From positions 4,705-68,704 of the forward strand of contig JBBILI010000018.1 of NCBI GenBank assembly GCA_037445025.1: a stretch of DNA of 64,000 nucleotides, in the 5' to 3' direction. How positions within the stretch are numbered: the first letter of the stretch is position 1; every line of letters begins with the position of its first letter. The notes beneath the pieces were generated by a model. That model worked only from the letters and a program-made list of their open reading frames with translations. It ran no database searches and had not been told where the DNA came from. Below are positions 3 to 52,846 of this stretch, piece by piece. The DNA is from Rhodospirillales bacterium (GTDB taxonomy: Bacteria; Pseudomonadota; Alphaproteobacteria; Acetobacterales; Acetobacteraceae). The position numbers were made by a program, and so were the translations under genes.

Positions 3-752
3 GACCTGCATGCGGCCGCGCTGCGGCAGTCCGGCACCCTGATCGTGCCCGATGCCGGCGCCGAGCCGGCGTTTGAGCACGACGATCTGGTGACCGGCCC
101 CTGGCAGATCCGCTTCTTCGCGAGCCTGCCCCTGCATCTGCGCGCCGGCGGCCGCATCGGCACGCTCTGCCTGCTCGATCCGGCGCCGCGACATCTCGGC
201 GAAACCCAGCTCGCCCCGCTGCAGGACCTCGCCCACATCATCACCGACCAGATCGAACTGCGATTGCAGGCCACGACGGACAGCCTGACCGGCGTCTACA
301 CCCGCCGCTACATCGGCTGCTACCTGGAGCCGGAAGTGGCGCGCTGCCGGCGCCACGGCAACCGGATGAGTGCCATGGCCGTCGAACTGGACGGGCTCAA
401 GGCCGTCAACACGCAGCTGGGTCCTGCGGCTGGCGACCTGTGGATCCACGCCGTGGTGACTGCGATCCGCGCCTCGCTGCGCTTCTGCGACCTGGTGGCG
501 CGCGTGGGCGGCAAGACGTTCCTGGTCATCCTGCCCGAAACACCGGCCGAAGGCGCAGCACTGGTGGCCGAACGCACCCGCAGCGCCATCGCGGCCCTGC
601 GGCTGCCCTTCGCCGCCACCGCGATCACCGGCACGGCCCGCATCGGCGTGACCACGCTGACCGGACATGACCTTCATGTGGGTGACCTGCTGCGCCGGCT
701 TGATGTGGCGCTTGCCGCGGCGGGGCATAATGAAGTTGTTTTTGAAGCATAG
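3..752 (+). CDS. GAF-GGDEF signalling protein, 5'-truncated by the window edge; GGDEF motif degenerate (GGKTF), RxxD I-site retained
   Basis: The frame is open from nt 3; track ORF 45..752 begins at an internal GTG. GAF-like 'RIGTLCLLDPAPRHL' is followed by 'DSLTGVYTRR...ELDGLKAVNT...RFCDLVARVGGKTFLVILPE', a GGDEF fold with GGKTF where GG[DE]EF is expected. Stop TAG at 750-752. Confidence 0.8.
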   Translation, partial: DLHAAALRQSGTLIVPDAGAEPAFEHDDLVTGPWQIRFFASLPLHLRAGGRIGTLCLLDPAPRHLGETQLAPLQDLAHIITDQIELRLQATTDSLTGVYTRRYIGCYLEPEVARCRRHGNRMSAMAVELDGLKAVNTQLGPAAGDLWIHAVVTAIRASLRFCDLVARVGGKTFLVILPETPAEGAALVAERTRSAIAALRLPFAATAITGTARIGVTTLTGHDLHVGDLLRRLDVALAAAGHNEVVFEA

Positions 753-788
753 AAACTTCTTTTCTGAAGAAAAGAAGCAAAAGACTTT
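731..788. repeat. AT-rich hairpin repeat, type B unit (CTTCTTTTC-TGAA-GAAAAGAAG + tail CAAAAGACTTT) with a degenerate upstream arm overlapping the last codons of the GGDEF gene
   Basis: Perfect 9-bp stem at 756-764/769-777 with loop TGAA. The left part GAAGTTGTTTTTGAAGCATAGAAACTT resembles the GAAGTTTC... left end of the copies at 42793 and 51899. Confidence 0.85.
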
Positions 789-797
789 CAATCGTTT

Positions 798-850
798 GAT
801 ACCAACGGCCTTGATCGATGACTCTTCCATCGATCAAGGCCGTTGGTATC
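798..850. repeat. Perfect 23-bp-stem hairpin of the ATACCAACGG / CCGTTGGTAT family
   Basis: GATACCAACGGCCTTGATCGATG-actcttc-CATCGATCAAGGCCGTTGGTATC. The outer stem is shared with the hairpins at 890-928 and 17603-17638. Confidence 0.85.
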
Positions 851-12844: not shown

Positions 12845-13849
12845 ATGATCGATCCCGCAGCCCTGCACCGCTCCCTTCTCACCGTCGACACCCATATCGA
12901 CATTCCCTGGCCCGAAGGCCCCGCCTTCACCGACAGCACCAAGCGCCGCGTCGATCTGCCGAAGATGCAGCAAGGCCACCTCGTCGCCGGCTGCTTCGCC
13001 GCCTATGTGCCGCAGACCCCGCGCACGCCCGAAGGCCATGGCGGCGCCTATGTGCGCGCCATCGCCATGCTCGACTTCATCAACACCATGGGACAGGGCA
13101 AGGCCCGCGTCTGCAGCACCGTCGATGCCATCGAGAAGGCGCACCGCGCCGGCGCCACCGTCATCATCCCCTGCGTCGAGAACGGCCACGCGCTCGGCGG
13201 CGAGCCCGCCCGCATCGCCGAATTCGCCAAGCGCGGCGCGCGCTACATGACGCTGACCCATAACGGCCACAACGCGCTGGCCGACAGCTCCAATCCCCGC
13301 GCCGATCTCGGCGACGGCGAAAAGCTGCACGGCGGCCTCTCCGCCCTCGGCCGCGAGGCGATCCTGGAGATGAACCGCAACGCCATGGTGGTCGATATCG
13401 CCCACGTGTCGAAGGCCTCGATGCTGCAGGCGGCCCAGGCGTCGCGCACACCGGTGATGTCGACGCATTCCTGCATCAAGGCGCTGTGCGACAATCTCCG
13501 CAACCTCGACGACGAACAGCTCGACGCGCTGCGCGATGTCGGCGGCATGGTCAACATCACCGCCGTGTCAGGCTTCCTCAAGGCCGGCGCCAAGCCGGAG
13601 CAGGTGACGCTGTCCGATTACGTCGATCACGTGGAGTACGCGGTGAACCGCATCGGCCTCGCCCATGTCGGGATTTCATCGGATTTCGACGGCGGCGGCG
13701 GCTTCACCGGATGGCGCGACATCTCCGACAGCGCGGGCATGACGGCAGAGCTGGTCGCGCGGGGATACGATGCGCAGGCGATCGCGGCGCTGTGGGGGGG
13801 GAATTTTCTGCGGATCCTGCGTGCGGCGGAGGTGGCGGCAAGCAGGTAG
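12845..13849 (+). CDS. Membrane dipeptidase (peptidase M19 family)
   Basis: 'TVDTHIDIPW...VENGHALGG...RYMTLTHNGHNALADSS...VVDIAHVS...MSTHS...ISSDFDGGGG' M19 metal-ligand pattern. Confidence 0.88.
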   Translation: MIDPAALHRSLLTVDTHIDIPWPEGPAFTDSTKRRVDLPKMQQGHLVAGCFAAYVPQTPRTPEGHGGAYVRAIAMLDFINTMGQGKARVCSTVDAIEKAHRAGATVIIPCVENGHALGGEPARIAEFAKRGARYMTLTHNGHNALADSSNPRADLGDGEKLHGGLSALGREAILEMNRNAMVVDIAHVSKASMLQAAQASRTPVMSTHSCIKALCDNLRNLDDEQLDALRDVGGMVNITAVSGFLKAGAKPEQVTLSDYVDHVEYAVNRIGLAHVGISSDFDGGGGFTGWRDISDSAGMTAELVARGYDAQAIAALWGGNFLRILRAAEVAASR

Positions 13850-13969
13850 GCAAGCGGTTCTTTTTTGAAAAAAAGAACCAAAAAACATTCACTCGGCTGG
13901 CGCGCCTCACCGGAGAGGCACGCACCCAACGGATGAAAGTCTTTTGCTTCTTTTCTTCAGAAAAGAAGC
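13848..13969. repeat. Composite AT-rich hairpin element (type A hairpin, 67-nt core, inverted type B hairpin; MITE-like)
   Basis: GGTTCTTTTT-TGAA-AAAAAGAACC at 13856-13879. CTTCTTTTC-TTCA-GAAAAGAAG at 13947-13968. The core contains TCACCGGAGAGG. It exactly fills the gap between the convergent stops at 13849 and 13972. Confidence 0.9.
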
Positions 13970-13971
13970 GC

Positions 13972-14505
13972 TTAAGCCCGCGCCAGCCAGGGCAGCATCC
14001 GCCGCAGCACGCCATCCTTCCAGAAATAGTGATGCGCCAGCGCCGCCGCCGCATGCAGCCCGGCCAGGATCAAAATCCCGTTGGCCGCCAGCGCATGCAC
14101 GCTGCCCACCAGCTGGCGCAACGGCTTGTCGTTCGCCGCGAAGGCCGGCAACCGGCCAAGATTGAGAATGTTGTCGCCCCGCGCGAACGTATAGGCCACG
14201 CCGGCCACCAGAACCGTCACCATCAGCGCATACAAGGCGTGATGCACCACCTGCGCCGCAAGCTGCTTCACCCCGGTCTCGGCCGGCGGCAGGCGGCGGC
14301 CGCTGGTCATGCGCCAGACGATCCGCGCCGCAATCAGGCCGATCAACGCCACGCCGAGCAGAATATGCACCGAACGTGCATAGATCCGCGCCGCGCCCGT
14401 GAAATCATCGATGAACTGCGGAATCAGCCACATCACCGCAACGGTCGCCGCCGAGATCCAGTGAAACACAATGGTGCGACGATCATACTGCAAAGAGGAG
14501 GACAT
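13972..14505 (-). CDS. Cytochrome b561 family protein
   Basis: Four-TM protein with conserved His residues (FHWISA...SVHILLG...HHALYALM...HAAAALAHH). Start at MSSSLQ (ATG 14505), 10 nt after the mbfA stop. Confidence 0.8.
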   Translation of the reverse strand: MSSSLQYDRRTIVFHWISAATVAVMWLIPQFIDDFTGAARIYARSVHILLGVALIGLIAARIVWRMTSGRRLPPAETGVKQLAAQVVHHALYALMVTVLVAGVAYTFARGDNILNLGRLPAFAANDKPLRQLVGSVHALAANGILILAGLHAAAALAHHYFWKDGVLRRMLPWLARA

Positions 14506-31615: not shown

Positions 31616-31620
31616 CGAAT

Positions 31621-31694
31621 GAAAGTTTCTTTGGTTCTTTCTTTTCAAACAAAGAACTTCTTTTTTTGAAAAAAATGAAGTAAAAAAACTTTTA
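31621..31694. repeat. Tandem double AT-rich hairpin element (slightly degenerate copy)
   Basis: GAAAGTTTC...GTTCTTTCTT-TTCA-AACAAAGAAC then CTTCTTTTTTT-GA-AAAAAATGAAG + tail AAAAAAACTTTT. It fills the gap between the convergent ccdA and argJ stops. Confidence 0.85.
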
Positions 31695-32921: not shown

Positions 32922-32949
32922 GGCGGGCGTTTCCTGTGGATTTTAAGAG

Positions 32950-33080
32950 AAGCAAGGTCTTCTTTTCTGAAGAAAAGAAGCAAAAGACTTTTATCCGCTG
33001 TCGCAGACCTCTCCGGAGAGAACCGCGAGAGCGGACAAAAGTTTTTTGGTTCTTTTTTTCAAAAAAGAACCGCTTGCCTT
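32950..33080. repeat. Composite AT-rich hairpin element, opposite orientation to 13848-13969
   Basis: Type B hairpin at 32959-32980, a 67-nt core containing CTCTCCGGAGAG, and an inverted type A hairpin at 33048-33071. Flanks are AGAAGCAAGG / GCTTGCCTT. Confidence 0.9.
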
Positions 33081-36842: not shown

Positions 36843-36866
36843 TTTTTTTTTCTTCAGAAAAGAAGG
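36843..36866. repeat. Degenerate solo type B hairpin remnant
   Basis: TTTTTTTTC-TTCA-GAAAAGAAG followed by GGCTTGCTT, the same right flank as the copies at 46911 and (in reverse complement) 32950. It lies 16 nt after the secA stop. Confidence 0.6.
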
Positions 36867-36915
36867 GCTTGCTTGAATTTCGTCTGCGGTGGGCTCAAGC
36901 CCACCCTACTGACAT

Positions 36916-39069: not shown

Positions 39070-39143
39070 TGGAGCGGGTGAAGGGAATCGAACCCTCGTA
39101 TGCAGCTTGGGAAGCTGCCGTTCTACCATTGAACTACACCCGC
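39070..39143 (-). tRNA. tRNA-Gly (anticodon CCC), CCA encoded
   Basis: The minus strand reads GCGGGTG-TA-GTTC-AATGGTA-GAAC-G-GCAGC-TTCCCAA-GCTGC-ATAC-GAGGG-TTCGATT-CCCTT-CACCCGC-T-CCA. This is a full 74-nt cloverleaf. Confidence 0.93.
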
Positions 39144-39224
39144 AGGCCGGCATGGCGGTTATAGGAAACCCGAGTTGACGGCGCAATCCACAGACCGTAG
39201 CGTTCGGGTCCCGCTATCGCGGGC

Positions 39225-39278
39225 CTCGTGATTTGTCCGGCCGGATTGCGGCGAGGTGAAACAAGCGCGCTAAAGAGG
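39225..39278 (+). promoter_or_regulatory. Probable SAM-II (metA-type) riboswitch in the metZ leader
   Basis: CTCGTGATTTGTCCGGCCGGATTGCGGCGAGGTGAAACAAGCGCGCTAAAGAGG carries the GUGAUUUG...UUGC...AAACAAGCGCGCUAAAG elements I recall for the alphaproteobacterial SAM-II consensus. It lies 79 nt upstream of a methionine-biosynthesis gene. Not verified with a covariance model. Confidence 0.5.
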
Positions 39279-39356
39279 CCAGCGGACGTCAAGCCGCGGG
39301 AATGGGCCCGTGGGCAGCCGCTGCATCCACGGTCGGCCCAGATAACAGGGCCCGTC

Positions 39357-40571
39357 ATGCCGAATCATCGCACCGCTCTCCGTCCCGCCACGCTCCTGGT
39401 GCATGGCGGCACTGAACGCACCGCCTATGGCGAAACCGCCGAGGCACTCTTTCTCACCTCCGGCTTTGTCTATGACAGCGCCGAACAGGCCGAGGCCACC
39501 TTCAAGGGCGAGGCCAGTCACTACCAGTATTCCCGCTTCGGCAACCCCACCGTCACCATGCTCGAGAAGCGCCTTTCGCTTCTAGAAGGGGCCGAGGCGT
39601 GCCGCGCCACCGCCACCGGCATGGCCGCCGTGCATGCCGCCATGCTGAGCCATCTCAAGGCCGGGGACCGCGTGGTGGCCTCCCGCGCCCTGTTCGGCTC
39701 CTGCCACTGGATCGTCTCCACCCTGCTGCCGCGCTACGGCGTCACCACCGTGTTCGTCGATGGCGCGGATCTCGCGGCCTGGGCGGAGGCGCTGGCCACC
39801 CCCACCACGATGGTGCTGCTGGAAAGCCCGTCCAACCCGATGCTCGATCTGGTGGACATCAAGGCGGTCTGTGACCTCGCCCATGCCGCCGGCGCGCTGG
39901 TGGTGGTGGACAACGTGTTCGCAACGCCGCTGCTGCAGAAGCCGTTCGAGCTCGGGGCCGATATCGTTGTGTATTCCTGCACCAAGCATATCGACGGCCA
40001 GGGCCGCGTGCTCGGCGGCGCCGTGCTGGGGCGGCAGAAATGGGTGGACGAGGTGCTGACCCCGTTCATCCGCAACACCGGCCCGTCGATCTCGCCGTTC
40101 AACGCCTGGCTGCTGCTGAAGGGGCTGGAAACGCTCTCGCTGCGGGTCACCGCCGCCTCCGCCACTGCCGAAGCCGTCGCCAACCACCTCGCCGGCCGCC
40201 CTGAAATCAGGATGGTCCGGTACCCCACCCGCACCGATCATCCGCAACACGAGCTGGCGCGGCGGCAGATGAAAGGCGGCAGCACGCTGGTGGCCTTCGA
40301 GCTGGCCGGCGGCAAGCCAGCGGCGTTTGCCATGATGAACGCGCTGCAGCTCGTCGCCGTGTCGAACAATCTCGGCGACAGCAAGTCGCTCGCCACGCAT
40401 CCCGCCACCACCACCCATATGCGCATCGGCGCGGAGGAGCGAGCCAAACTCGGCATCAGCGACGGCGCCATCCGTCTCTCCGTCGGACTCGAAGATGTGG
40501 CCGATCTGATCGCCGATATCGACCAGGCGCTCGATCATGTCACGCAATCCTCACGGCAGGCTGCGGAATAG
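39357..40571 (+). CDS. metZ: O-succinylhomoserine sulfhydrylase (Cys/Met-metabolism PLP enzyme)
   Basis: 'TLLVHGG...FVYDSAEQAEATFKGE...YQYSRFGNPTV...YSCTKHIDGQGRVLGG' with the PLP-lysine context. Confidence 0.88.
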   Translation: MPNHRTALRPATLLVHGGTERTAYGETAEALFLTSGFVYDSAEQAEATFKGEASHYQYSRFGNPTVTMLEKRLSLLEGAEACRATATGMAAVHAAMLSHLKAGDRVVASRALFGSCHWIVSTLLPRYGVTTVFVDGADLAAWAEALATPTTMVLLESPSNPMLDLVDIKAVCDLAHAAGALVVVDNVFATPLLQKPFELGADIVVYSCTKHIDGQGRVLGGAVLGRQKWVDEVLTPFIRNTGPSISPFNAWLLLKGLETLSLRVTAASATAEAVANHLAGRPEIRMVRYPTRTDHPQHELARRQMKGGSTLVAFELAGGKPAAFAMMNALQLVAVSNNLGDSKSLATHPATTTHMRIGAEERAKLGISDGAIRLSVGLEDVADLIADIDQALDHVTQSSRQAAE

Positions 40572-42313: not shown

Positions 42314-42793
42314 ATGTCGAAATTTCCGCTTCTCGCGGCCGGGCTGCTGTGCCTGGCCTTCCCGGCCTTGGCTCAGGGCCCTTCCGTGACCGTCCAGAAC
42401 GCCTGGGCACGCGCCACCACGCCGCAGCAGAAGGTGGGCGGCGTGTTTCTCACCCTGATCGACAACGGGCCGGCAGACCGGCTGGTCTCGGCCACCTCGC
42501 CGATCGGCGACATGGTCGAGCTGCACCAGACGGTCAACGACGGCGGCGTGATGAAGATGCTGCCGGTTGAAACGCTCGATTTGCCGCAGGGCACAAAGGT
42601 CGAACTGAAGCCGGGCGGGTATCACCTGATGGTGATGGGGCTGAAGCACGGCCTGGTCGCCGGAAGCAGCTTTCCGGTCACGCTGACCTTCGAAAAATCG
42701 GCGCCGGTGACAGTGACGGTGACGGTGGGCACCGCAGGCGCAGCTGGCCCTACGATGCTGGGCCATGGCACCATGCCTCAATCAAAGGAATAG
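42314..42793 (+). CDS. Periplasmic copper chaperone PCu(A)C (DUF461)
   Basis: Signal peptide; 'GVFLTLIDNG...DMVELHQTV..GGVMKM...GGYHLMVMGL' with the H(M)-X10-M-X21-HXM Cu(I) motif. Confidence 0.88.
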   Translation: MSKFPLLAAGLLCLAFPALAQGPSVTVQNAWARATTPQQKVGGVFLTLIDNGPADRLVSATSPIGDMVELHQTVNDGGVMKMLPVETLDLPQGTKVELKPGGYHLMVMGLKHGLVAGSSFPVTLTFEKSAPVTVTVTVGTAGAAGPTMLGHGTMPQSKE

Positions 42794-42865
42794 AAGTTTC
42801 TTTGGTTCTTTCTTTTCAAAGAAAGAACTTCTTTTTTGAAAAAAAGAAGCAAAAAACTTTTATCC
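42793..42865. repeat. Tandem double AT-rich hairpin element (best-preserved copy)
   Basis: GAAGTTTCTTTG-GTTCTTTCTT-TTCA-AAGAAAGAAC then CTTCTTTTT-TGAA-AAAAAGAAG + CAAAAAACTTTTATCC. It spans the whole gap between the convergent PCuAC and purC stops. Confidence 0.9.
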
Positions 42866-44480: not shown

Positions 44481-46325
44481 ATGTTCAAATATTTCGAAGA
44501 CCGGCTGAAACCAACCGCGATGGCGCCCGAATCGCCGCCGCCGCGCGATGGCGAGCGGGCCCTGATGCGCTTCTACTGGCATTATGTGCGCCAGGCGAAG
44601 TTCCTCTACCTCGCGCTGTTCGTCGCCGGGCTGACGGTGGCGCTGATGGACACGCTGATCCCGGTGTTCATCGGCCGTCTGGTCACGCTGGTGTCCAAGC
44701 ATGCGCCGGAAACACTGCTGGCGCAGGAATGGCCGCAGCTGGCCCTGATGGCGGCGGCCTTGCTCCTGGGCCGGCCGCTGTCGCTGCTGGCGCGCGGGCT
44801 GATCACCAACCAGGCGCTGGCGGCGGGGCTCACCAACCTGGTGCGCTGGCAGTCGCATTGGCACGTCGTGCGCCAGAGCTGGACGTTCTTTCAGAACGAT
44901 TTCGCCGGCCGCGTCGCCAACCGGGTGATGCAGACCGGGCCGGCGCTGCGCGAAAGCGTGACCGCCTCGATCAACGCGGTGTGGTACATCCTCGTCTACG
45001 GTGTGACGGCGCTGGCGCTGATGTTCTCCGATGACTGGCGGCTCACCCTGCCGCTGATCGCCTGGTTCGCGGCCTATATCCTGATGCTGCGCTATTTCGT
45101 GCCCCGCCTGCGCGACCGGTCGCGCGCCATGAGCGAGGTGCGCTCCGGCCTCACCGGGCGGATCGTCGACAGCTACACCAACATCCTCACGGTGAAGTTG
45201 TTCGCCCGCGCCCGCGACGAGGATGATTTCGTGCGCGCGGCGGTGGACGACCACACCAACGCGTTTCACGACCAGCTGCGCATGATCACCCGCTATGTGC
45301 TGACGCTGACCATCATCAACGCGTTCCTGGTGGCCGGCACCGCCGCCATGGCGGTGACGCTGTGGACGATGGGGCTGATCACCGTCGGCGCCGTGGCGAT
45401 GGTGCTGCCGCTGGCGTGGCAGATCTCCAACATCTCCGGCTGGGTGGCCGAGAACGTCACCGCCATCTTCGAGAATGTCGGCATCGTGCAGGACGGCATG
45501 AAGTCCATCGCCGTGCCGCGGCAGATGCCGGATGCGCCGGACGCGCGCGAGCTGCAGGTGACGCGCGGCGCCATCCGGTTCGAGAACGTCACCTTCGGCT
45601 ACGGCACCCAGCGCGGCGTGCTGCACAATCTGTCGCTCGATATCGCACCGGGCGAGCGCATCGGGCTGGTCGGTCATTCCGGCGCCGGCAAGTCCACGCT
45701 GGTCAATCTGCTGCTGCATTTCCACAAGCCCGACAGCGGCCGCATCACCATCGACGGGCAGGACATCGCAGGCGTCACCCAGGAGAGCCTGCGCACGCAG
45801 ATCGCCATGGTGACGCAGGACACCTCGCTGCTGCATCGCTCGATCCGCGACAACATCGCCTATGGGCGCCCCTGGGCGTCGGATGCCGAGGTGGTGGCCG
45901 CCGCCGAGCAGGCGGAGGCGACGGATTTCATCGCCACATTGGAGGACTGGAACGGCAACACCGGATACGAGGCACATGTCGGCGAGCGCGGGGTGAAGCT
46001 GTCCGGCGGCCAGCGCCAGCGCATCGCAATCGCCCGCGTCATCCTCAAGGACGCGCCGATCCTGGTGCTGGACGAGGCCACATCCGCCCTCGACTCCGAG
46101 GTGGAAGCGGCGATTCAAAGCCAGATGGACCGGCTGATGCGCGGCCGCACCGTCATCGCCATCGCGCACCGCCTGTCCACCATCGCCAAGATGGACCGGG
46201 TGGTGGTGATGGACCATGGCCGCATCGTCGAAATCGGCACGCATCATGCGTTGCTCGAGAAAGGCGGGGCGTACGCGCGGATGTGGGGGCGGCAGTCCGG
46301 CGGGTTTGCCGAGGCGGCGGATTGA
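44481..46325 (+). CDS. ABC transporter, fused permease/ATP-binding protein (exporter type)
   Basis: Six-TM N-terminal domain; 'GLVGHSGAGKSTL' Walker A, 'LSGGQRQRIAIAR' signature, 'ILVLDEATSALD' Walker B. Confidence 0.9.
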   Translation: MFKYFEDRLKPTAMAPESPPPRDGERALMRFYWHYVRQAKFLYLALFVAGLTVALMDTLIPVFIGRLVTLVSKHAPETLLAQEWPQLALMAAALLLGRPLSLLARGLITNQALAAGLTNLVRWQSHWHVVRQSWTFFQNDFAGRVANRVMQTGPALRESVTASINAVWYILVYGVTALALMFSDDWRLTLPLIAWFAAYILMLRYFVPRLRDRSRAMSEVRSGLTGRIVDSYTNILTVKLFARARDEDDFVRAAVDDHTNAFHDQLRMITRYVLTLTIINAFLVAGTAAMAVTLWTMGLITVGAVAMVLPLAWQISNISGWVAENVTAIFENVGIVQDGMKSIAVPRQMPDAPDARELQVTRGAIRFENVTFGYGTQRGVLHNLSLDIAPGERIGLVGHSGAGKSTLVNLLLHFHKPDSGRITIDGQDIAGVTQESLRTQIAMVTQDTSLLHRSIRDNIAYGRPWASDAEVVAAAEQAEATDFIATLEDWNGNTGYEAHVGERGVKLSGGQRQRIAIARVILKDAPILVLDEATSALDSEVEAAIQSQMDRLMRGRTVIAIAHRLSTIAKMDRVVVMDHGRIVEIGTHHALLEKGGAYARMWGRQSGGFAEAAD

Positions 46326-46330
46326 AGGCT

Positions 46331-46364
46331 GTTCTTTTTTGAAAAAAAGAACCAAAAAACTTTC
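46331..46364. repeat. Solo type A AT-rich hairpin unit
   Basis: GTTCTTTTT-TGAA-AAAAAGAAC + CAAAAAACTTTC, 5 nt after the ABC transporter stop. Confidence 0.88.
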
Positions 46365-46383
46365 GTTTGTTTGAGGGATTCCC

Positions 46384-46794
46384 ATGTCCGAGCTCACCAT
46401 CGCTGCCGGCCCGTATACCTTTACCGCGCGGTGGGAGGAGGAACTGGCACCCAAGACATGCGCGAAGTTCAAGACGCTGCTGCCGTACAAGGAGCGCATC
46501 ATCCATGTGCGCTGGAGCGGCGAGGCGTGCTGGATACCGTTGGGGGAGCTGGACCTCGGCCTCGGCTACGAGAACCACACCAGCTATCCCGCGCCCGGCC
46601 AGATCCTGGTCTATCCCGGCGGCATCAGCGAGACCGAGATCCTGCTGGCCTACGGCTCCTGCCACTTCGCCAGCAAGGTCGGCCAGCTCGCCGGCAATCA
46701 TTTCCTCACCATCACCGGCGGGCTGGAGAATCTGGTGGCGCTGGGGAAGATGACGCTGTGGCAGGGCGCGCAGGACATCGTGTTCGGCGCCTGA
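46384..46794 (+). CDS. DUF3830 (cyclophilin-like fold) protein
   Basis: 136 aa. 'FTARWEEELAPKTCAKFKTLLPY...IHVRWSGEACWIPLG...PGQILVYPGGISETEILLAYG' resembles the DUF3830 family from memory. Confidence 0.6.
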   Translation: MSELTIAAGPYTFTARWEEELAPKTCAKFKTLLPYKERIIHVRWSGEACWIPLGELDLGLGYENHTSYPAPGQILVYPGGISETEILLAYGSCHFASKVGQLAGNHFLTITGGLENLVALGKMTLWQGAQDIVFGA

Positions 46795-46797
46795 AGC

Positions 46798-46921
46798 GGT
46801 TCTTTTTTGAAAAAAAGAACCAAAAAACTTTTATCCGCCAACACGTGACCCTCCTGAAAGATCCGCGTCAGCGTTTCAAAGTCTTTTGCTTCTTTTTTTT
46901 AGAAAAGAAGGCCTTGCTTCC
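46798..46921. repeat. Composite AT-rich hairpin element (type A hairpin, 67-nt core, decayed inverted type B hairpin)
   Basis: Hairpin A at 46798-46821, tail AAAAAACTTTTATCCGC, hairpin B remnant CTTCTTTTTTTTAGAAAAGAAG at 46889-46910, flank GCCTTGCTTCC. Confidence 0.88.
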
Positions 46922-47015
46922 TTGCATCAGTGGCCAAAGAGCAATGCAGGTATATTGTATCTACTATTTAATTCGAATAAGCAACGAATAGGGTGTGCCT
47001 TTGGGCGGGTCCCCA

Positions 47016-47588
47016 TCACCGTTTCGAGACACGATCCGTCCGGACCCAGGCCATCACACCGCGTGGAATCGGCACACGCCCCAGATCCGGTATCACCTGC
47101 TTGCGCGGCCGAGCCCGCACGCGCCGTTTCGGCGCATCCGCCCCAGGCCGCAACACCGAAGTCTCGATCGCCAGCATCCGGCACACCGGCGTCAGCACCC
47201 GCACCGCCTGTGGGCACGCCGCCAGAAATGCCACCATCTCGGGCGTCTCCAGCACGGCCCGAAGCTGGCAGCCCAACCCAGCCGCCTCCCAACCGGCGTC
47301 TCGCACCAACCATCCGAACCGGCAAGGCCACAGCCGAACCCCGGCCTCCCGAGCGGCACGCGAAACCGCCGGCGAACGCGCACGCCGCACGCCCACCGGC
47401 CGCAACCGCCCCGCCTGAAACCGCGACACCATCCCCTCGATCCGGCGAAGAATCTCCCCCAACCTGCGATACACCAGATGCACCAGCGCCTCATCCAACC
47501 ACCGCCGACCGCCCCAGTGCGCCACCGCCACCCGCAAGGTGCCGATCACGGCGGACAGGCTCAAAAAGGGGAAAGAAGCGGCGTTCAT
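47016..47588 (-). CDS. Orphan hypothetical protein with atypical codon usage
   Basis: 190 aa from MNAASFPFLSL.... It contains 'LETPEMVAFLAACPQAVRVLTPVCRMLAIE'. It is rich in TTG/CGG/GGG codons, unlike its neighbours. No domain is recognised with confidence. Confidence 0.5.
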   Translation of the reverse strand: MNAASFPFLSLSAVIGTLRVAVAHWGGRRWLDEALVHLVYRRLGEILRRIEGMVSRFQAGRLRPVGVRRARSPAVSRAAREAGVRLWPCRFGWLVRDAGWEAAGLGCQLRAVLETPEMVAFLAACPQAVRVLTPVCRMLAIETSVLRPGADAPKRRVRARPRKQVIPDLGRVPIPRGVMAWVRTDRVSKR

Positions 47589-47846
47589 GATTATTTTCCT
47601 ACTCGAAAACCCCTCCAGGCGCAAGAGGAAAGCATCGGCCAAGCGTCCCCGATGCGGCCCCTCCATGGATCAACATCACGGGCGGTTGGCAGAGACCGGA
47701 ACGAATTCCATCCACGTCGCAGCTGCAACGCAAGATCGATCAGCGCCATTCAAAGGCCCGCGAACAGAACTGGCCGTCCCATGACGTCACCAGACAGACA
47801 TCGTGGATGCGTGCTCCCGGAGGGCGATGCAATCCGCCGGTCCTCG

Positions 47847-47869
47847 CCAAAAGGCGGATGACATCCGCC
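47847..47869 (-). terminator. Rho-independent terminator of the aminotransferase gene
   Basis: The minus strand reads GGCGGAT-gtc-ATCCGCC-TTTTGG immediately after the TAG stop (47870-47872). Confidence 0.65.
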
Positions 47870-49195
47870 CTACGCGAGCACCGTCTCCACGGCATCCCCC
47901 AGCCGCTCAACGATCGCCACAATATCCTCACGCTGGGCAATATACGGCGGCGCGATCAACACATGGTCTCCGAACCGCCCATCGATCGTGCCACCCATCG
48001 GATAGACCGCCACCCCGTTCTGAAACGCCTGCTGCTTGATCTTTTCATGCAGCCGCAGACCGGGATCGAACGGCCGCTTGCTCGACCGGTCCGCCACGAG
48101 CTCGATCGCCTGGAACAGCCCACGGCCGCGGATGTCACCGATATGGGCGTGGTTGCCGAAACGCTCGGTGAGCTGTTCGTGCAGCACGGCCCCCATCGCC
48201 CGCACATTGGCCAGCAGATCGTCCTCGGCAATCACCCGCTGCACCGCCAGCGCCGCCGCACAGGCCACCGGATGCGCCTGATAGGTGTGCCCATGCATGA
48301 ACGCGCCGGACCCCGCATCCAGCGCCTGGATCACCTTCCCCGACACCAGCACCCCGCCGATCGGCTGAAACCCGCCGCCCAACCCCTTGGCGATCACCTG
48401 GATATCCGGCACCACGCCCTCCTGCTCCCAGGCATGCATGGTGCCGGTGCGGCCCATGCCGCACATCACCTCATCGAGGATCAGCAGCGCGCCGTGCCGG
48501 TCGCACACCGCGCGCATCGCCGGGAAATAGCCGGGCACGGCGGTGACACAGCCCGTCGTCGCCCCCACCACCGGCTCGGCGCAGAAGGCGATGACATTCT
48601 GCGGACCAAGGCGCTGGAATTCCGCCTCCAGCTCGTCCGCCAGCCGCTGAACATAGGCGGCGTCGCTCTCATCCGTGCCTTGGAACCGGTAGGAGAAGCA
48701 CGGGCTGACATGGCTGAACGCCGGTGACAGCAGTTCGGCATAGGGGGCACGCCGCATGGCGTTGCCGCCGGCCGACAGCGCGCCCAACGTGTTGCCGTGA
48801 TAGCTCGCCCGCCTGGCGATGAACCGGGTGCGCTGGGGCTGGCCGATTTCCAGATAATACTGCCGCGCTAGCTTGATCGCCGTCTCCATGCCCTCGGAGC
48901 CGGAGGAGACGAAGAACGCATGGGTCAGGCCGCCCGGCTCGTCCGCCAGCAGCGTCTCGGCCAGCTCCTCGGCGGCGGTGTTGGTGAACAGGCCGGTATG
49001 GACATAGGCGACCTTGGCCAATTGGTCCGCGATCGCCGCCCGCACCCGGACATCGCCATGCCCCAGGCACGCCACCGCCGCCCCGCCGGAGCCGTCCAGC
49101 ACCGTCCGGCCATCCGCCATCACGATATGCATGCCGTAGCCCCCCACCGCCAGATGCGGTGCCTCGTGCAGGCTGCGGTGCAGAATACGGCTCAT
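47870..49195 (-). CDS. Class III (omega) aminotransferase family protein
   Basis: 'DGSGGAAVACLGHGD...FFVSSGSEGMETAIKLARQY...ILDEVMCGMGRTG...' PLP fold type I, class III motifs. Start at MSRILHR (ATG 49195). Confidence 0.88.
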   Translation of the reverse strand: MSRILHRSLHEAPHLAVGGYGMHIVMADGRTVLDGSGGAAVACLGHGDVRVRAAIADQLAKVAYVHTGLFTNTAAEELAETLLADEPGGLTHAFFVSSGSEGMETAIKLARQYYLEIGQPQRTRFIARRASYHGNTLGALSAGGNAMRRAPYAELLSPAFSHVSPCFSYRFQGTDESDAAYVQRLADELEAEFQRLGPQNVIAFCAEPVVGATTGCVTAVPGYFPAMRAVCDRHGALLILDEVMCGMGRTGTMHAWEQEGVVPDIQVIAKGLGGGFQPIGGVLVSGKVIQALDAGSGAFMHGHTYQAHPVACAAALAVQRVIAEDDLLANVRAMGAVLHEQLTERFGNHAHIGDIRGRGLFQAIELVADRSSKRPFDPGLRLHEKIKQQAFQNGVAVYPMGGTIDGRFGDHVLIAPPYIAQREDIVAIVERLGDAVETVLA

Positions 49196-51831: not shown

Positions 51832-51873
51832 AAAAAAAAGCGCTGCTGCCTTCGGGCAGCAGCGCTTTTTTTT
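51832..51873. terminator. Bidirectional Rho-independent terminator (A8, 12-bp GC stem, T8)
   Basis: AAAAAAAAGCGCTGCTGCC-ttcg-GGCAGCAGCGCTTTTTTTT, 16 nt after the atpF stop. It is symmetric, so it could also serve the convergent Tim44-like gene. Confidence 0.9.
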
Positions 51874-51898: not shown

Positions 51899-51951
51899 GA
51901 AAGTTTCAACGAAAGAACTTCTTTTTTGAAAAAAAGAAGCAAAAAACTTTC
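51899..51951. repeat. Double-hairpin AT-rich element with the left hairpin deleted
   Basis: GAAAGTTTC-AAC-GAAAGAAC then CTTCTTTTT-TGAA-AAAAAGAAG + CAAAAAACTTTCA. Compared with 42793-42865 it lacks the left hairpin arm. Its tail supplies the TGA stop of the Tim44-like gene. Confidence 0.85.
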
Positions 51952-52846
51952 ATCGGACCTGCTGTATCGCCGAGAGCACCCACCGGCCACCGGGAGCACG
52001 CAGAAAGGTCCAGATCTCTGTCGCCATGATCCGTTCATTTGGGTGACCGTCCACAACCTGCCCCTGCGGCGTCACCGTCACATCCACCGCGGAGAAACGC
52101 ATCGCCACAGTGGCATATTCTCGGCCCTGCTCAGCCCACGCCTCCGACAGATCACCCTGCTCAAGCTTCACATCCCGCACCAGATTGCGCACGTTGCGAC
52201 TGGTCTGCTCGGCCATCTGCTCACCGAAGTAGCTCACCATCTCCGGGGTCACGATCATGCGCAGCGTCGTCAGGTCATGCTGCGACCAGGCCGCCTGAAC
52301 CCCCTGCAGCAGCTGTTCGAACGCCTGGAAATCCGCCGGCCCGATCTGAACAGCCGACCCCGCCGGTCGCCCGACGCCCGGCATGCCAGACCCTGTGAAC
52401 ATCGCAGGCCCCTCGGCCATGACCAGGGCCCGGCCCATGAACCGGCTCAGCACCCAGCGGCCGACATAGAACAGAATCGCCAGCTGGATCAGCAGACCAA
52501 ACATGCTGCCAAACCCGCTGATACCGTGAAACAGCCCGCCACCGAACAGCATCCCCAGCAGCCCCGCGCCGATGAACCCACCGACCAGCCCGCCCATGAA
52601 CGAGGGCCGCGGCTGATATCCCGGCGCATAGCCGGGCGCCGGCGCCTGCGGGCTCGGCTGGGTCAGGCTCCGCTGCATGGGAGCGGCCGTGCCGGGCGCG
52701 GTCCTCGTGGGCGGCGGCGCGGAATAGGTGCGCGTGCCACGACTGCCAGACGACGTGCCCCCGCCCGCAAGGGCGAAGGCCGATGTCGGCGCAAGCGCAA
52801 GTCCAAGCACAAAAAACGCAGCAAACAGAGCGGCAGGGCGGCGCAT
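51950..52846 (-). CDS. Tim44-like domain protein
   Basis: Signal peptide, Pro-rich linker, Gly-rich TM segment, and a C-terminal 'FEQLLQGVQAAWSQHDLTTLRMIVTPEM...WTFLR...GRWVLSAIQQ' Tim44-like fold. Confidence 0.8.
   Translation of the reverse strand: MRRPAALFAAFFVLGLALAPTSAFALAGGGTSSGSRGTRTYSAPPPTRTAPGTAAPMQRSLTQPSPQAPAPGYAPGYQPRPSFMGGLVGGFIGAGLLGMLFGGGLFHGISGFGSMFGLLIQLAILFYVGRWVLSRFMGRALVMAEGPAMFTGSGMPGVGRPAGSAVQIGPADFQAFEQLLQGVQAAWSQHDLTTLRMIVTPEMVSYFGEQMAEQTSRNVRNLVRDVKLEQGDLSEAWAEQGREYATVAMRFSAVDVTVTPQGQVVDGHPNERIMATEIWTFLRAPGGRWVLSAIQQVR

What the first reader, a model, noticed from the sequence alone, without database searches (positions are those of the whole stretch)
13848..13969. 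AT-rich TGAA-loop hairpin repeat family occupies nine intergenic gaps in 64 kb
In an otherwise GC-rich window, nine intergenic sites carry near-identical AT-rich hairpin units. Type A is GGTTCTTTTT-TGAA-AAAAAGAACC with tail AAAAAAC(T/A)TT. Type B is CTTCTTTTC-TGAA-GAAAAGAAG with tail CAAAAGACTTT. Type C is CTTCTTTTT-TGAA-AAAAAGAAG with tail CAAAAAACTTT. The loci are 731-788, 13848-13969, 31621-31694, 32950-33080, 36843-36866 (decayed), 42793-42865, 46331-46364, 46798-46921 and 51899-51951. Their footprint shows in the six-frame track as recurring FFSEEKKQKTF / FFFEKKNQKTF peptides. The hairpins are not canonical intrinsic terminators: the stems are A/T and the tail after the stem is A-rich. 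A conventional GC-stem/T8 terminator sits right beside one copy (51832-51873). I do not recognise the sequence as REP/BIME, ERIC, RIME, Correia or RUP. If this window is representative, the genome holds hundreds of copies.
Basis: seen in the sequence. Interest (0 to 1): 0.7.

Follow-up and report, generated by a model that had tools for sequence, protein, structure and literature searches.

The report
AT-rich palindromic repeat family, Acetobacteraceae
The hairpins are real: they are about 50-bp modules of an apparently undescribed, high-copy intergenic repeat family of Acetobacteraceae, built like the REP/BIME elements of E. coli, sitting just after stop codons where the paired forms look like two-way transcription terminators, and carrying an unusual three-part symmetry that fits a DNA triple helix.

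Summary
All nine sites exist, none is expected by chance, and a profile search finds no further site.

The "hairpins" are modules of about 50 bp: an (AAGN)2-3 head, a 10-11 bp pyrimidine/purine hairpin centred on GA, and a purine tail C-A(4-6)R-AC-TTTT.

- Modules pair tail-to-tail, with a spacer most often 46 bp, into palindromes of about 135 bp. Three are in the window and more than 100 in related DNA.
- They also pair head-to-head into elements of about 70 bp, or occur singly.

The family is widespread in Acetobacteraceae and absent from Rfam and from the searched literature. It favours gaps between convergent genes and shows no target-site duplication. At orthologous sites the modules stay 97-100% identical while the centre and synonymous sites have diverged to 56-77%.

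The only REP-associated transposase seen is flanked by a different, GC-rich GTAG REP, so the mobilising or binding factor is unknown.

Paired forms give a hairpin followed by a U-tract in both directions.

In every variant class the tail mirrors the apical purine arm, insertions included. That is the rule for an intrastrand triplex, as in PIT/BoxC elements.

Verdict: a new REP/BIME-like variant of moderate to high interest.

The parts
731..790 (+). Degenerate head-to-head element: a decayed reverse unit (731-756) followed by an intact type-B unit (755-790). The stop codon of the upstream + gene (750-752) lies inside it.
   Evidence: (nhmmer 755-790, E=1.3e-10)
13845..13973 (.). Long tail-to-tail element: type-A unit 13845-13894 (+), GC-rich centre of about 46 bp, type-B unit 13931-13973 (-). 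It fills the gap between the stop codons of convergent genes (M19 dipeptidase and cytochrome b561).
   Evidence: (RNA fold -54 and -66 kcal/mol, z -6 and -8)
31617..31693 (.). Short head-to-head element: type-D unit 31617-31663 (-) abutting a decayed type-C unit 31650-31693 (+). It lies between convergent dsbD-like and argJ genes.
32948..33080 (.). Long tail-to-tail element: type-B unit 32948-32996 (+), 46-bp centre, type-A unit 33033-33080 (-). It lies between the stop of a PPIase gene and the start of argJ, both on the - strand.
   Evidence: (-65 and -67 kcal/mol, z -8.6 and -9.1)
36847..36875 (-). Decayed single type-B unit downstream of secA. The orthologous unit in L118 is intact.
   Evidence: E=2.8e-6
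42788..42865 (.). Short head-to-head element: type-D unit 42788-42828 (-) plus type-C unit 42818-42865 (+). It lies between convergent PCuAC and purC (SAICAR synthetase) genes. The first hairpin is flagged as terminator-like.
46323..46367 (+). Single type-A unit between the stop of an ABC-transporter gene and the ribosome-binding site of a DUF3830 gene (co-directional genes).
   Evidence: E=1e-14
46794..46922 (.). Long tail-to-tail element: type-A unit 46794-46836 (+), 46-bp centre, slightly mutated type-B unit 46878-46922 (-). It starts at the stop codon of the DUF3830 gene.
51899..51953 (+). Head-to-head element with a truncated first unit (51899-51918) and an intact type-C unit (51910-51953). 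The tail overlaps the stop codon of the convergent - strand gene. It lies 26 bp after a canonical terminator of atpF.
   Evidence: (E=5.8e-13)

Best explanation
The nine sites are copies of a dispersed, non-coding repeat family specific to Acetobacteraceae. It is organised like REP/BIME (REPIN-type) elements.

What is shown:
- The basic module is about 50 bp: a head (AAGN)2-3, a 10-11 bp homopyrimidine/homopurine hairpin with a central GA, and a purine tail.
- Modules occur singly or as inverted pairs.
- Tail-to-tail pairs, with a spacer most often 46 bp, form a palindrome of about 135 bp with outer inverted repeats AAGSAAGC...GCTTSCTT.
- Head-to-head pairs form an element of about 70 bp.

What is inferred:
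- Copies are spread and kept uniform by a trans-acting, lineage-conserved protein that recognises the module, probably as folded single-stranded DNA. This would happen without target duplication, as HUH-type enzymes do for REPs, or by gene conversion among copies.
- Copies survive mainly just past stop codons, where they do least harm.
- There the paired forms act on transcripts as two-way hairpin plus U-tract terminators or 3'-end protectors. That effect would give the host a reason to keep them.
For: Reality and architecture:
- 11 core matches against 0 expected.
- 300 units in the window plus 117 loci; 73 adjacent pairs are tail-to-tail, most with spacers of 42-50 bp (mode 46) and smaller sets at 58-113 bp. 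35 more such pairs occur in viral contigs.
- The head consensus fades beyond position -14.
- Long forms fold at -54 to -67 kcal/mol, z -6 to -9.

Pairing constraint:
- Compensatory stem changes occur at pair 2 (G:C 164, C:G 145), pair 4 (T:A to C:G 21) and pair 10 (T:A to C:G 43).

Distribution:
- Hits are almost all Acetobacteraceae or Rhodospirillales, including Gluconacetobacter, Acidiphilium, Acidocella and Roseomonas, plus Pseudoroseomonas cervicalis plasmids where the elements are unannotated.

Context:
- In the window, 6-7 sites lie between convergent genes, 2 between co-directional genes and none in divergent gaps.
- Across loci, occupancy is 48% for convergent, 21-28% for tandem and 8% for divergent gaps.

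Dynamics:
- The orthologous PPIase-argJ gap is filled in the window, L118 and L120. In L121 the A and B unit types are swapped, and in outgroup L119 the gap is empty. L119 has no unit in 12.9 kb.
- The gap 3' of argJ holds a short form or a single unit, depending on lineage.

Constraint or homogenisation:
- Orthologous units are 32-33 of 33-34 identical, the centre is 56-73% identical, and argJ four-fold sites are 63-77% identical.

Mode of spread:
- No target-site duplication signal in 77 elements.
- An IS66 element inserted into one element with an 8-bp duplication; REPs are known insertion-sequence targets.

Effect on transcripts:
- All three long forms and the short forms give a hairpin abutting a U-rich tract in both directions.
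Against: - No mobilising gene was found.
- The only REP-associated tyrosine transposase (RAYT) seen (NF047646, 192 bits) and three orthologues are flanked by a different, GC-rich GTAG REP.
- No recent insertion polymorphism between near-identical strains was available, so mobility is inferred from dispersal and from presence or absence. It was not seen directly, and the element ends are not defined.
- Near-perfect conservation at orthologous sites could reflect host function alone.
- Termination is predicted, not measured. One copy sits next to a canonical terminator, and single units have no U-tract.
- The gene calls behind the context statistics come from a crude GC3-based caller.
Confidence: 0.6

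Rival explanations
1. The elements are host-selected bidirectional intrinsic terminators. They would be conserved because a GC-rich genome poor in canonical terminators needs hairpin plus U-tract modules between convergent genes. On this reading, mobility is irrelevant or long extinct.
For: - About 7 of 9-10 convergent junctions in the window are occupied. Occupancy across loci is 48% for convergent and 8% for divergent gaps.
- Hairpin plus U-tract geometry exists in both directions for paired forms.
- Canonical terminator-like sites are not enriched in the window: 7 found against 10.6 expected.
- Units are far more conserved than synonymous sites.
Against: - Terminator function needs only a stem and a U-tract. 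It does not explain the near-identity of 34-50 nt across genera, the conserved AAGN head, or the mirror tail.
- About half the sites are single units without terminator geometry, and these show no orientation bias relative to transcription (18 against 15).
- One element follows a canonical terminator.
- A related lineage (L119) has none at the same junctions.
- Some copies decay, for example 36847-36875.
Confidence: 0.2
2. The module is a structural DNA element selected to form an intrastrand triple helix, the AT-rich counterpart of E. coli PIT/BoxC/TMECO motifs. It would be class II on one strand and class IV on the other. It would act on single-stranded or supercoiled DNA in replication pausing, recombination or topology, or as the feature read by its cognate enzyme.
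For: - In every variant class the tail is the mirror of the apical purine arm, in a fixed register: AGAAAA/AAAAGA (36), AGAAAAA/AAAAAGA (19), AGAAAAAA/AAAAAAGA (4), GAAAAA/AAAAAG (15), AAAGAAA/AAAGAAA (3). A direct-repeat rule fails.
- The result is replicated in viral contigs, 39 consistent against 5.
- The layout Y6-8, loop GA, R6-8, loop GAAGC, R6-8 meets the published motif definition of 6-15 nt stems and 1-6 nt loops (PMC4666352).
- Pair 11 next to the central GA covaries (TGAA to CGAG, 18 copies), although it cannot pair in a simple RNA hairpin.
Against: - The register requires the 4-bp basal stem to open, because loop 2 is GAAGC. That basal stem itself shows compensatory changes, so hairpin and triplex would be alternative states.
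- Six to eight triads is short. The same paper treats 6-7 nt AT-rich motifs as mostly chance, and PIT elements showed no in vivo function.
- There are only about 5 independent variant classes, so the statistics rest on few events.
- A dimeric protein reading minor-groove shape (the weak/strong base-pair pattern) would also see mirror repeats as symmetric.
Confidence: 0.15
3. The elements are classical MITEs derived from a DDE-transposase insertion sequence that shares the same terminal inverted repeats.
For: - Size of about 135 bp with terminal inverted repeats.
- Subfamilies with shared centres of 46, about 62, about 70 and about 90 bp.
- Presence on plasmids and in phage-like contigs.
Against: - No target-site duplication of 2-9 bp above background.
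- Ten genes lying between tail-to-tail units at 0.6-2.7 kb are housekeeping genes. The one IS66 transposase has its own ends and is inserted into an element.
- Single units and head-to-head forms do not fit a fixed transposon with inverted-repeat ends.
Confidence: 0.05

Closest known systems
REP / BIME elements (palindromic units of E. coli, Pseudomonas, Stenotrophomonas) and REPINs
   Same: - Short imperfect palindromes in high copy, located extragenically and mostly at the 3' ends of genes.
- Two unit variants in alternating orientation with linkers of defined length (tail-to-tail and head-to-head junctions).
- Inverted doublets that fold into one long hairpin.
- No target duplication.
- Act as targets for insertion sequences.
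- Long persistence with patchy distribution among lineages.
(General features taken from PMC3333891, PMC2817692 and PMC3116915 abstracts, and from established knowledge.)
   Different: - AT-rich homopyrimidine/homopurine stems in a 67% GC genome, instead of GC-rich stems.
- No GTAG or CGTC tag.
- The RAYT genes seen in these genomes are flanked by another, GC-rich GTAG REP.
- An extra purine tail that mirrors the stem.
PIT / BoxC / TMECO intrastrand-triplex motifs (Hoyne and Maher 2000; Holder et al. 2015, PMC4666352)
   Same: - Dispersed intergenic bacterial repeat made of three blocks: pyrimidine arm, purine arm, second purine arm, with short loops.
- Class II on one strand and class IV on the other.
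- Strongly lineage-dependent copy number.
   Different: - A/T-rich with 6-8 nt arms, against G/C-rich with 9 nt arms.
- Embedded in a longer 10-11 bp hairpin and in paired composite elements.
- Found in Acetobacteraceae, not Enterobacteria or Cyanobacteria.
- Here, variant classes supply covariation evidence for the three-block rule.
ERIC/IRU, Correia (NEMIS), RUP and BOX elements
   Same: Imperfect palindromes of 70-150 bp in intergenic regions that are co-transcribed with flanking genes. Correia elements can act as terminators or RNase III substrates (established knowledge).
   Different: - No sequence similarity.
- No TA duplication as in Correia elements.
- Modular unit structure, with single units common.
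Bidirectional intrinsic terminators
   Same: A GC-rich central hairpin flanked by an A-rich 5' arm and a U-rich 3' arm, positioned between convergent genes.
   Different: - The flanks, not the central hairpin, are the conserved part.
- The flanks are themselves hairpins.
- The same module also occurs singly, without terminator geometry.

Membership tests
REP/BIME | Imperfect palindrome of 20-40 bp, high copy, extragenic | tested here: met
   24-bp palindrome within a 50-bp unit. 13-14 units in 64 kb; 300 units in 0.9 Mb of related loci; all sites lie at gene ends.
REP/BIME | Units in alternating orientation with linkers of defined length (mosaic clusters) | tested here: met
   73 tail-to-tail pairs, most with spacers of 42-50 bp (mode 46). 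Head-to-head pairs have a 0-bp linker.
REP/BIME | Conserved GTAG or CGTC tetranucleotide at one end of the palindrome | tested here: not met
   The 5' flank consensus is AAGSAAGS-N-S. A separate GTAG REP family (GTAGGGTGGG...) exists in the same genomes.
REP/BIME and REPIN | A cognate RAYT gene flanked by the same units | tested here: not met
   RAYT at L030:2587-3126 (NF047646, 192 bits) and orthologues in L124-L126 are flanked by the GC-rich GTAG REP. No RAYT lies in the window. A second, unseen RAYT is not excluded.
MITE (DDE-transposon derived) | Terminal inverted repeats with a flanking target-site duplication | tested here: not met
   Inverted repeats are present, but no duplication of 2-9 bp exceeds the permuted background in 77 elements.
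MITE (DDE-transposon derived) | A parent insertion sequence with the same ends | tested here: inconclusive
   Ten inter-unit genes were screened. None is a cognate transposase; the IS66 element is an insertion into an element. No whole genome was searched.
Intrinsic (Rho-independent) terminator | A stable hairpin immediately followed by a U-rich tract | tested here: met
   Met for paired forms in both directions, with -10 to -41 kcal/mol followed by at least 5 U in 8 nt. Not met for single units.
Intrinsic (Rho-independent) terminator | Transcript 3' ends map to the U-tract | not testable with these tools
   No RNA data were available.
Intrastrand triplex motif (PIT/BoxC/TMECO; ITxF classes II and IV) | Three consecutive blocks Y, R and mirror-R with stems of 6-15 nt and loops of 1-6 nt | tested here: met
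   Y6-8, loop GA, R6-8, loop GAAGC, R6-8. The mirror is exact in all major variant classes. Definition taken from PMC4666352.
Intrastrand triplex motif (PIT/BoxC/TMECO; ITxF classes II and IV) | Physical formation of the triplex | not testable with these tools
   ViennaRNA does not model triplexes. The steric conflict with the 4-bp basal stem is noted.
Rfam RNA families | Match at the gathering score | tested here: not met
   Only tRNA and SAM_alpha matched in the window. The elements give sub-threshold hits to generic long hairpins.
DNA uptake sequences (DUS/USS) | A short 9-12 nt motif over-represented inside genes as well as between them | tested here: not met
   The units are about 50 bp and confined to gene ends. 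No copy lies in a confidently called coding region of the window, apart from one C-terminal overlap.

The most novel reading that the evidence does not exclude
The three-way covariation of pyrimidine arm, purine arm and mirror tail includes coordinated one- and two-nucleotide insertions. It may mean that natural selection maintains the ability of each module to fold into an intramolecular triple helix. If so, this would be comparative (covariation) evidence that a bacterial dispersed repeat works through a triplex, possibly as the structure recognised by the unknown enzyme or protein that keeps the family uniform across Acetobacteraceae.
Probability: 0.2. Interest if true: 0.8.

Novelty: new variant of a known kind. 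Interest (0 to 1): 0.55.

Why it matters
- Acetobacteraceae include acetic-acid bacteria, acidophiles and opportunistic pathogens. Di Nocera et al. (2013) list the family among alphaproteobacteria that lack CGTC-tagged REP repeats. This family fills most convergent gene junctions in some genomes, so it bears on annotation, 3'-end formation, strain typing and genome rearrangement.
- The modules are kept almost invariant across genera while neutral sites have diverged. That implies a conserved trans-acting partner still to be found.
- The mirror-tail covariation gives a rare, directly testable case for biological selection on an intrastrand triplex. That question has stayed open since PIT/BoxC elements were described.

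Tried and rejected
- Rfam at gathering score on the window, and at E<1 on four element-rich loci: no family.
- Full-text search for the sequences, and for REP, MITE or palindromic repeats in Acetobacteraceae: nothing describes them.
- RAYT as mobiliser. A RAYT sequence recalled from memory, used only as a lead, hit L030. The confirmed RAYT and three orthologues are flanked by GC-rich GTAG REPs, not by these units.
- Parent insertion sequence between distant unit pairs: housekeeping genes only. The IS66 element is inserted into an element.
- Target-site duplication search: no signal.
- Strand or orientation bias in tandem contexts, as a test for a strand-specific RNA function: none. Single units are 18 against 15; long forms are 10 against 9.
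- G:T against A:C mismatch asymmetry in stems: 39 against 38 excluding the unpaired position 1, so no wobble signal.
- Exact-protein look-up to find sister strains of the window's genome: not on record.
- Direct-repeat and Watson-Crick alternative-pairing explanations for the covariation of tail and stem. The direct repeat fails for types A and C. The Watson-Crick pairing needs a different register for each type.
- attC, dif, IHF and DnaA-box resemblances were considered from memory and dropped, because the relevant positions are not conserved among copies.

Full report
**Observation**

The window is 62-72% GC and alphaproteobacterial, as shown by a SAM-alpha riboswitch and a tRNA-Gly gene. 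The core CTTTTYTGAARAAAAG, allowing one mismatch, occurs 11 times against 0.00 expected.

**Anatomy**

The repeated thing is not a bare hairpin but a module of about 50 bp.
- The head is (AAGN)2-3, and conservation fades beyond position -14.
- The hairpin has 10-11 bp. Its 5' arm is all pyrimidine and its 3' arm all purine, around a central GA.
- The tail is C-A(4-6)R-AC-TTTT.

Modules combine in three ways.
- Tail-to-tail pairs form a long element of about 135 bp with outer inverted repeats AAGSAAGC...GCTTSCTT. Window copies are 13845-13973, 32948-33080 and 46794-46922.
- Head-to-head pairs have no linker and use a fourth unit type, D. Window copies are 31617-31693, 42788-42865, a truncated copy at 51899-51953 and a decayed copy at 731-790.
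- Single units lie at 46323-46367 and, decayed, at 36847-36875.

In the window plus 117 related loci there are 300 units. Of adjacent pairs, 73 are tail-to-tail, most with spacers of 42-50 bp (mode 46) and smaller length classes from 58 to 113 bp. A further 35 such pairs occur in viral contigs. Long forms fold into a single hairpin of about 60 bp, at -54 to -67 kcal/mol with z of -6 to -9. A lone unit hairpin reaches only about -7 kcal/mol.

**Pairing constraint**

Stem positions show compensatory changes:
- pair 2: G:C 164 and C:G 145;
- pair 4: T:A to C:G, 21 copies;
- pair 10: T:A to C:G, 43 copies;
- the pair next to the central GA: TGAA to CGAG, 18 copies.

G:T mismatches (39) are no commoner than A:C mismatches (38). 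In co-directional gene contexts neither single units (18 against 15) nor long forms (10 against 9) show an orientation preference. Nothing therefore points to a strand-specific RNA.

**Distribution**

Almost all are Acetobacteraceae or Rhodospirillales, including Gluconacetobacter liquefaciens and G. tumulicola, Acidiphilium, Acidocella and Roseomonas. Long forms also sit, unannotated, on two Pseudoroseomonas cervicalis plasmids. The pattern occurs in 81 IMG/VR contigs with median GC of 0.63. Acidiphilium acidophilum carries a dialect with a GCGC basal stem. A few exact copies occur in low-GC Firmicutes and phage contigs and in Bacteroides plasmids. These remain unexplained.

No Rfam family matches, and no paper in the library contains the sequence or describes such a repeat in this family of bacteria.

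**Genomic context**

In the window, 6-7 of the nine sites lie between convergent genes, two lie between co-directional genes just after the upstream stop, and none lies in a divergent gap. About seven of nine or ten convergent junctions are occupied. With a crude GC3-based gene caller over all loci, occupancy is 48% for convergent gaps, 21-28% for tandem gaps and 8% for divergent gaps. Element ends often overlap stop codons.

**Evolution at orthologous sites**

ArgJ homologues of 88-94% identity gave four syntenic loci.
- The PPIase-argJ gap holds a long form in the window, L118 and L120.
- In L121 the A and B unit types are swapped while the centre keeps its orientation.
- In L119 the gap is only 7 bp and empty. 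L119 is the outgroup by SecA and PPIase identity and has no unit in 12.9 kb.
- The gap 3' of argJ holds a short form in three lineages and a single unit in a fourth. The secA 3' gap holds an intact unit, a decayed unit or a long form, depending on lineage.
- Orthologous units are 32-33 of 33-34 identical. The centre is 56-73% identical and argJ four-fold degenerate sites are 63-77% identical.

The modules are therefore either under strong constraint or continually homogenised. Their arrangement, by contrast, is fluid.

**Mobiliser**

- No target-site duplication is detectable in 77 elements, which argues against a DDE-type MITE.
- Genes lying between more distant unit pairs are housekeeping genes. 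An IS66 element in L008 is inserted into a long form, with its own inverted repeats and an 8-bp duplication.
- A bona fide REP-associated tyrosine transposase (RAYT) occurs in L030 (NF047646, 192 bits). Orthologues occur in Acidiphilium sp. PA, A. acidophilum and a metagenome-assembled genome. All are flanked by a different, GC-rich GTAG REP, GTAGGGTGGGGTGC...GCACCCCACCC. One copy of that REP lies in the window at about 36880-36909.

The AT-rich family thus works like REP/BIME, but membership of the RAYT-mobilised REPs is not shown. Two defining features were tested and not met.

**Likely effect on transcripts**

In paired forms, the U-rich 5' arm of one unit follows a hairpin made by the partner unit (short form) or by the tails plus the GC-rich centre (long form). 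All three long forms give -16 to -41 kcal/mol hairpins that abut UUUCUUCA or UUUUUCAA in both directions. The short forms give 10-bp AU hairpins followed by UCUUUUUU or a similar tract. The consensus scanner flags 42804-42829. Single units lack this geometry.

**Unexpected feature**

Within each unit the tail is the mirror image of the apical purine arm, in one fixed register. The classes are:
- AAAAAA / AAAAAA
- AGAAAA / AAAAGA (36 copies)
- AGAAAAA / AAAAAGA (19)
- AGAAAAAA / AAAAAAGA (4)
- GAAAAA / AAAAAG (15)
- AAAGAAA / AAAGAAA (3)

A direct-repeat rule fails. The viral-contig set replicates the result, with 39 consistent against 5 inconsistent. Each class needs coordinated changes in three places, insertions included.

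This pattern (pyrimidine arm, purine arm, mirror purine arm, with loops GA and GAAGC) is the published definition of a class II intrastrand triplex motif, and of class IV on the other strand. The E. coli PIT/BoxC/TMECO repeats are the known example (PMC4666352).

Caveats:
- The register requires the 4-bp basal stem to open, yet that stem itself covaries.
- Arms of 6-8 nt are short.
- Only about five independent classes exist.
- A shape-reading protein dimer could also see mirror repeats as symmetric.

I treat the triplex as the most novel reading not excluded, with a probability of about 0.2.

**Verdict**

This is a real, apparently undescribed, high-copy repeat family of Acetobacteraceae. It has REP/BIME-like mosaic organisation, predicted two-way terminator geometry in its paired forms, an unknown trans-acting partner, and a triplex-type three-block symmetry. 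I classify it as a new variant of a known kind, with interest 0.55.

Noticed in passing
window 36880-36909: A classical GC-rich GTAG-tagged REP (GGTGGGCTCAAGCCCACCCTAC on the + strand) sits beside the decayed AT-rich unit. The same REP type flanks RAYT genes in L030, L124, L125 and L126, so these genomes carry two unrelated palindromic repeat families.
   Followed up: partly
window 800-848 and 890-928: Two near-perfect palindromes of about 40-49 bp (taccaacggccttgatcgatg..catcgatcaaggccgttggta and ctcatatcaacggtcat..atgaccgttgatatgag) share a CAACGG motif and a TCTTC loop. They lie between the first AT-rich unit and a possible decayed partner unit at 969-991.
   Followed up: no
L008 3830-6470: An IS66-family element (ends GTAATTGCTCACCCCGGG, 8-bp duplication TTTGCTTC) is inserted inside a long-form element. 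It splits the type-B unit from the rest.
   Followed up: yes
L078 167-2510; L154, L166, L174, L199; L127 2501-2539: Exact or near-exact units occur outside Acetobacteraceae. Two inverted copies with about 50 bp of extra flanking inverted repeat bracket three housekeeping genes in a 41% GC Eubacteriales metagenome-assembled genome. One copy lies just upstream of a ribosome-binding site in 40% GC phage contigs. One copy is found in roughly 100-kb Bacteroides and Parabacteroides plasmids. Horizontal transfer, convergence or mis-binning remains unresolved.
   Followed up: partly
L126 4590-4660 (Acidiphilium acidophilum): A unit dialect whose basal stem is GCGC/GCGC instead of CTTC/GAAG, with head, T6/A6 arms and tail unchanged. 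The exact-pattern scan therefore underestimates the family's range.
   Followed up: no
window 39070-39143 and 39215-39294: A tRNA-Gly(CCC) gene on the - strand and a SAM-alpha riboswitch on the + strand, upstream of the ORF called at 39228-40571 (447 aa).
   Followed up: no
window 46922-47870: The stretch after the third long element starts with an AT-rich patch (gtatattgtatctactatttaattcgaataag). It is followed by about 900 bp with no confidently called gene and a strongly C-rich + strand, and may be foreign or a poorly predicted - strand gene.
   Followed up: no
L118 compared with L121 and window, downstream of argJ: L118 lacks the dsbD-thioredoxin gene pair that follows argJ in L120 and L121 (the window has at least the dsbD-like gene). 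The short-form element sits exactly at the junction, which hints at rearrangement at elements.
   Followed up: no
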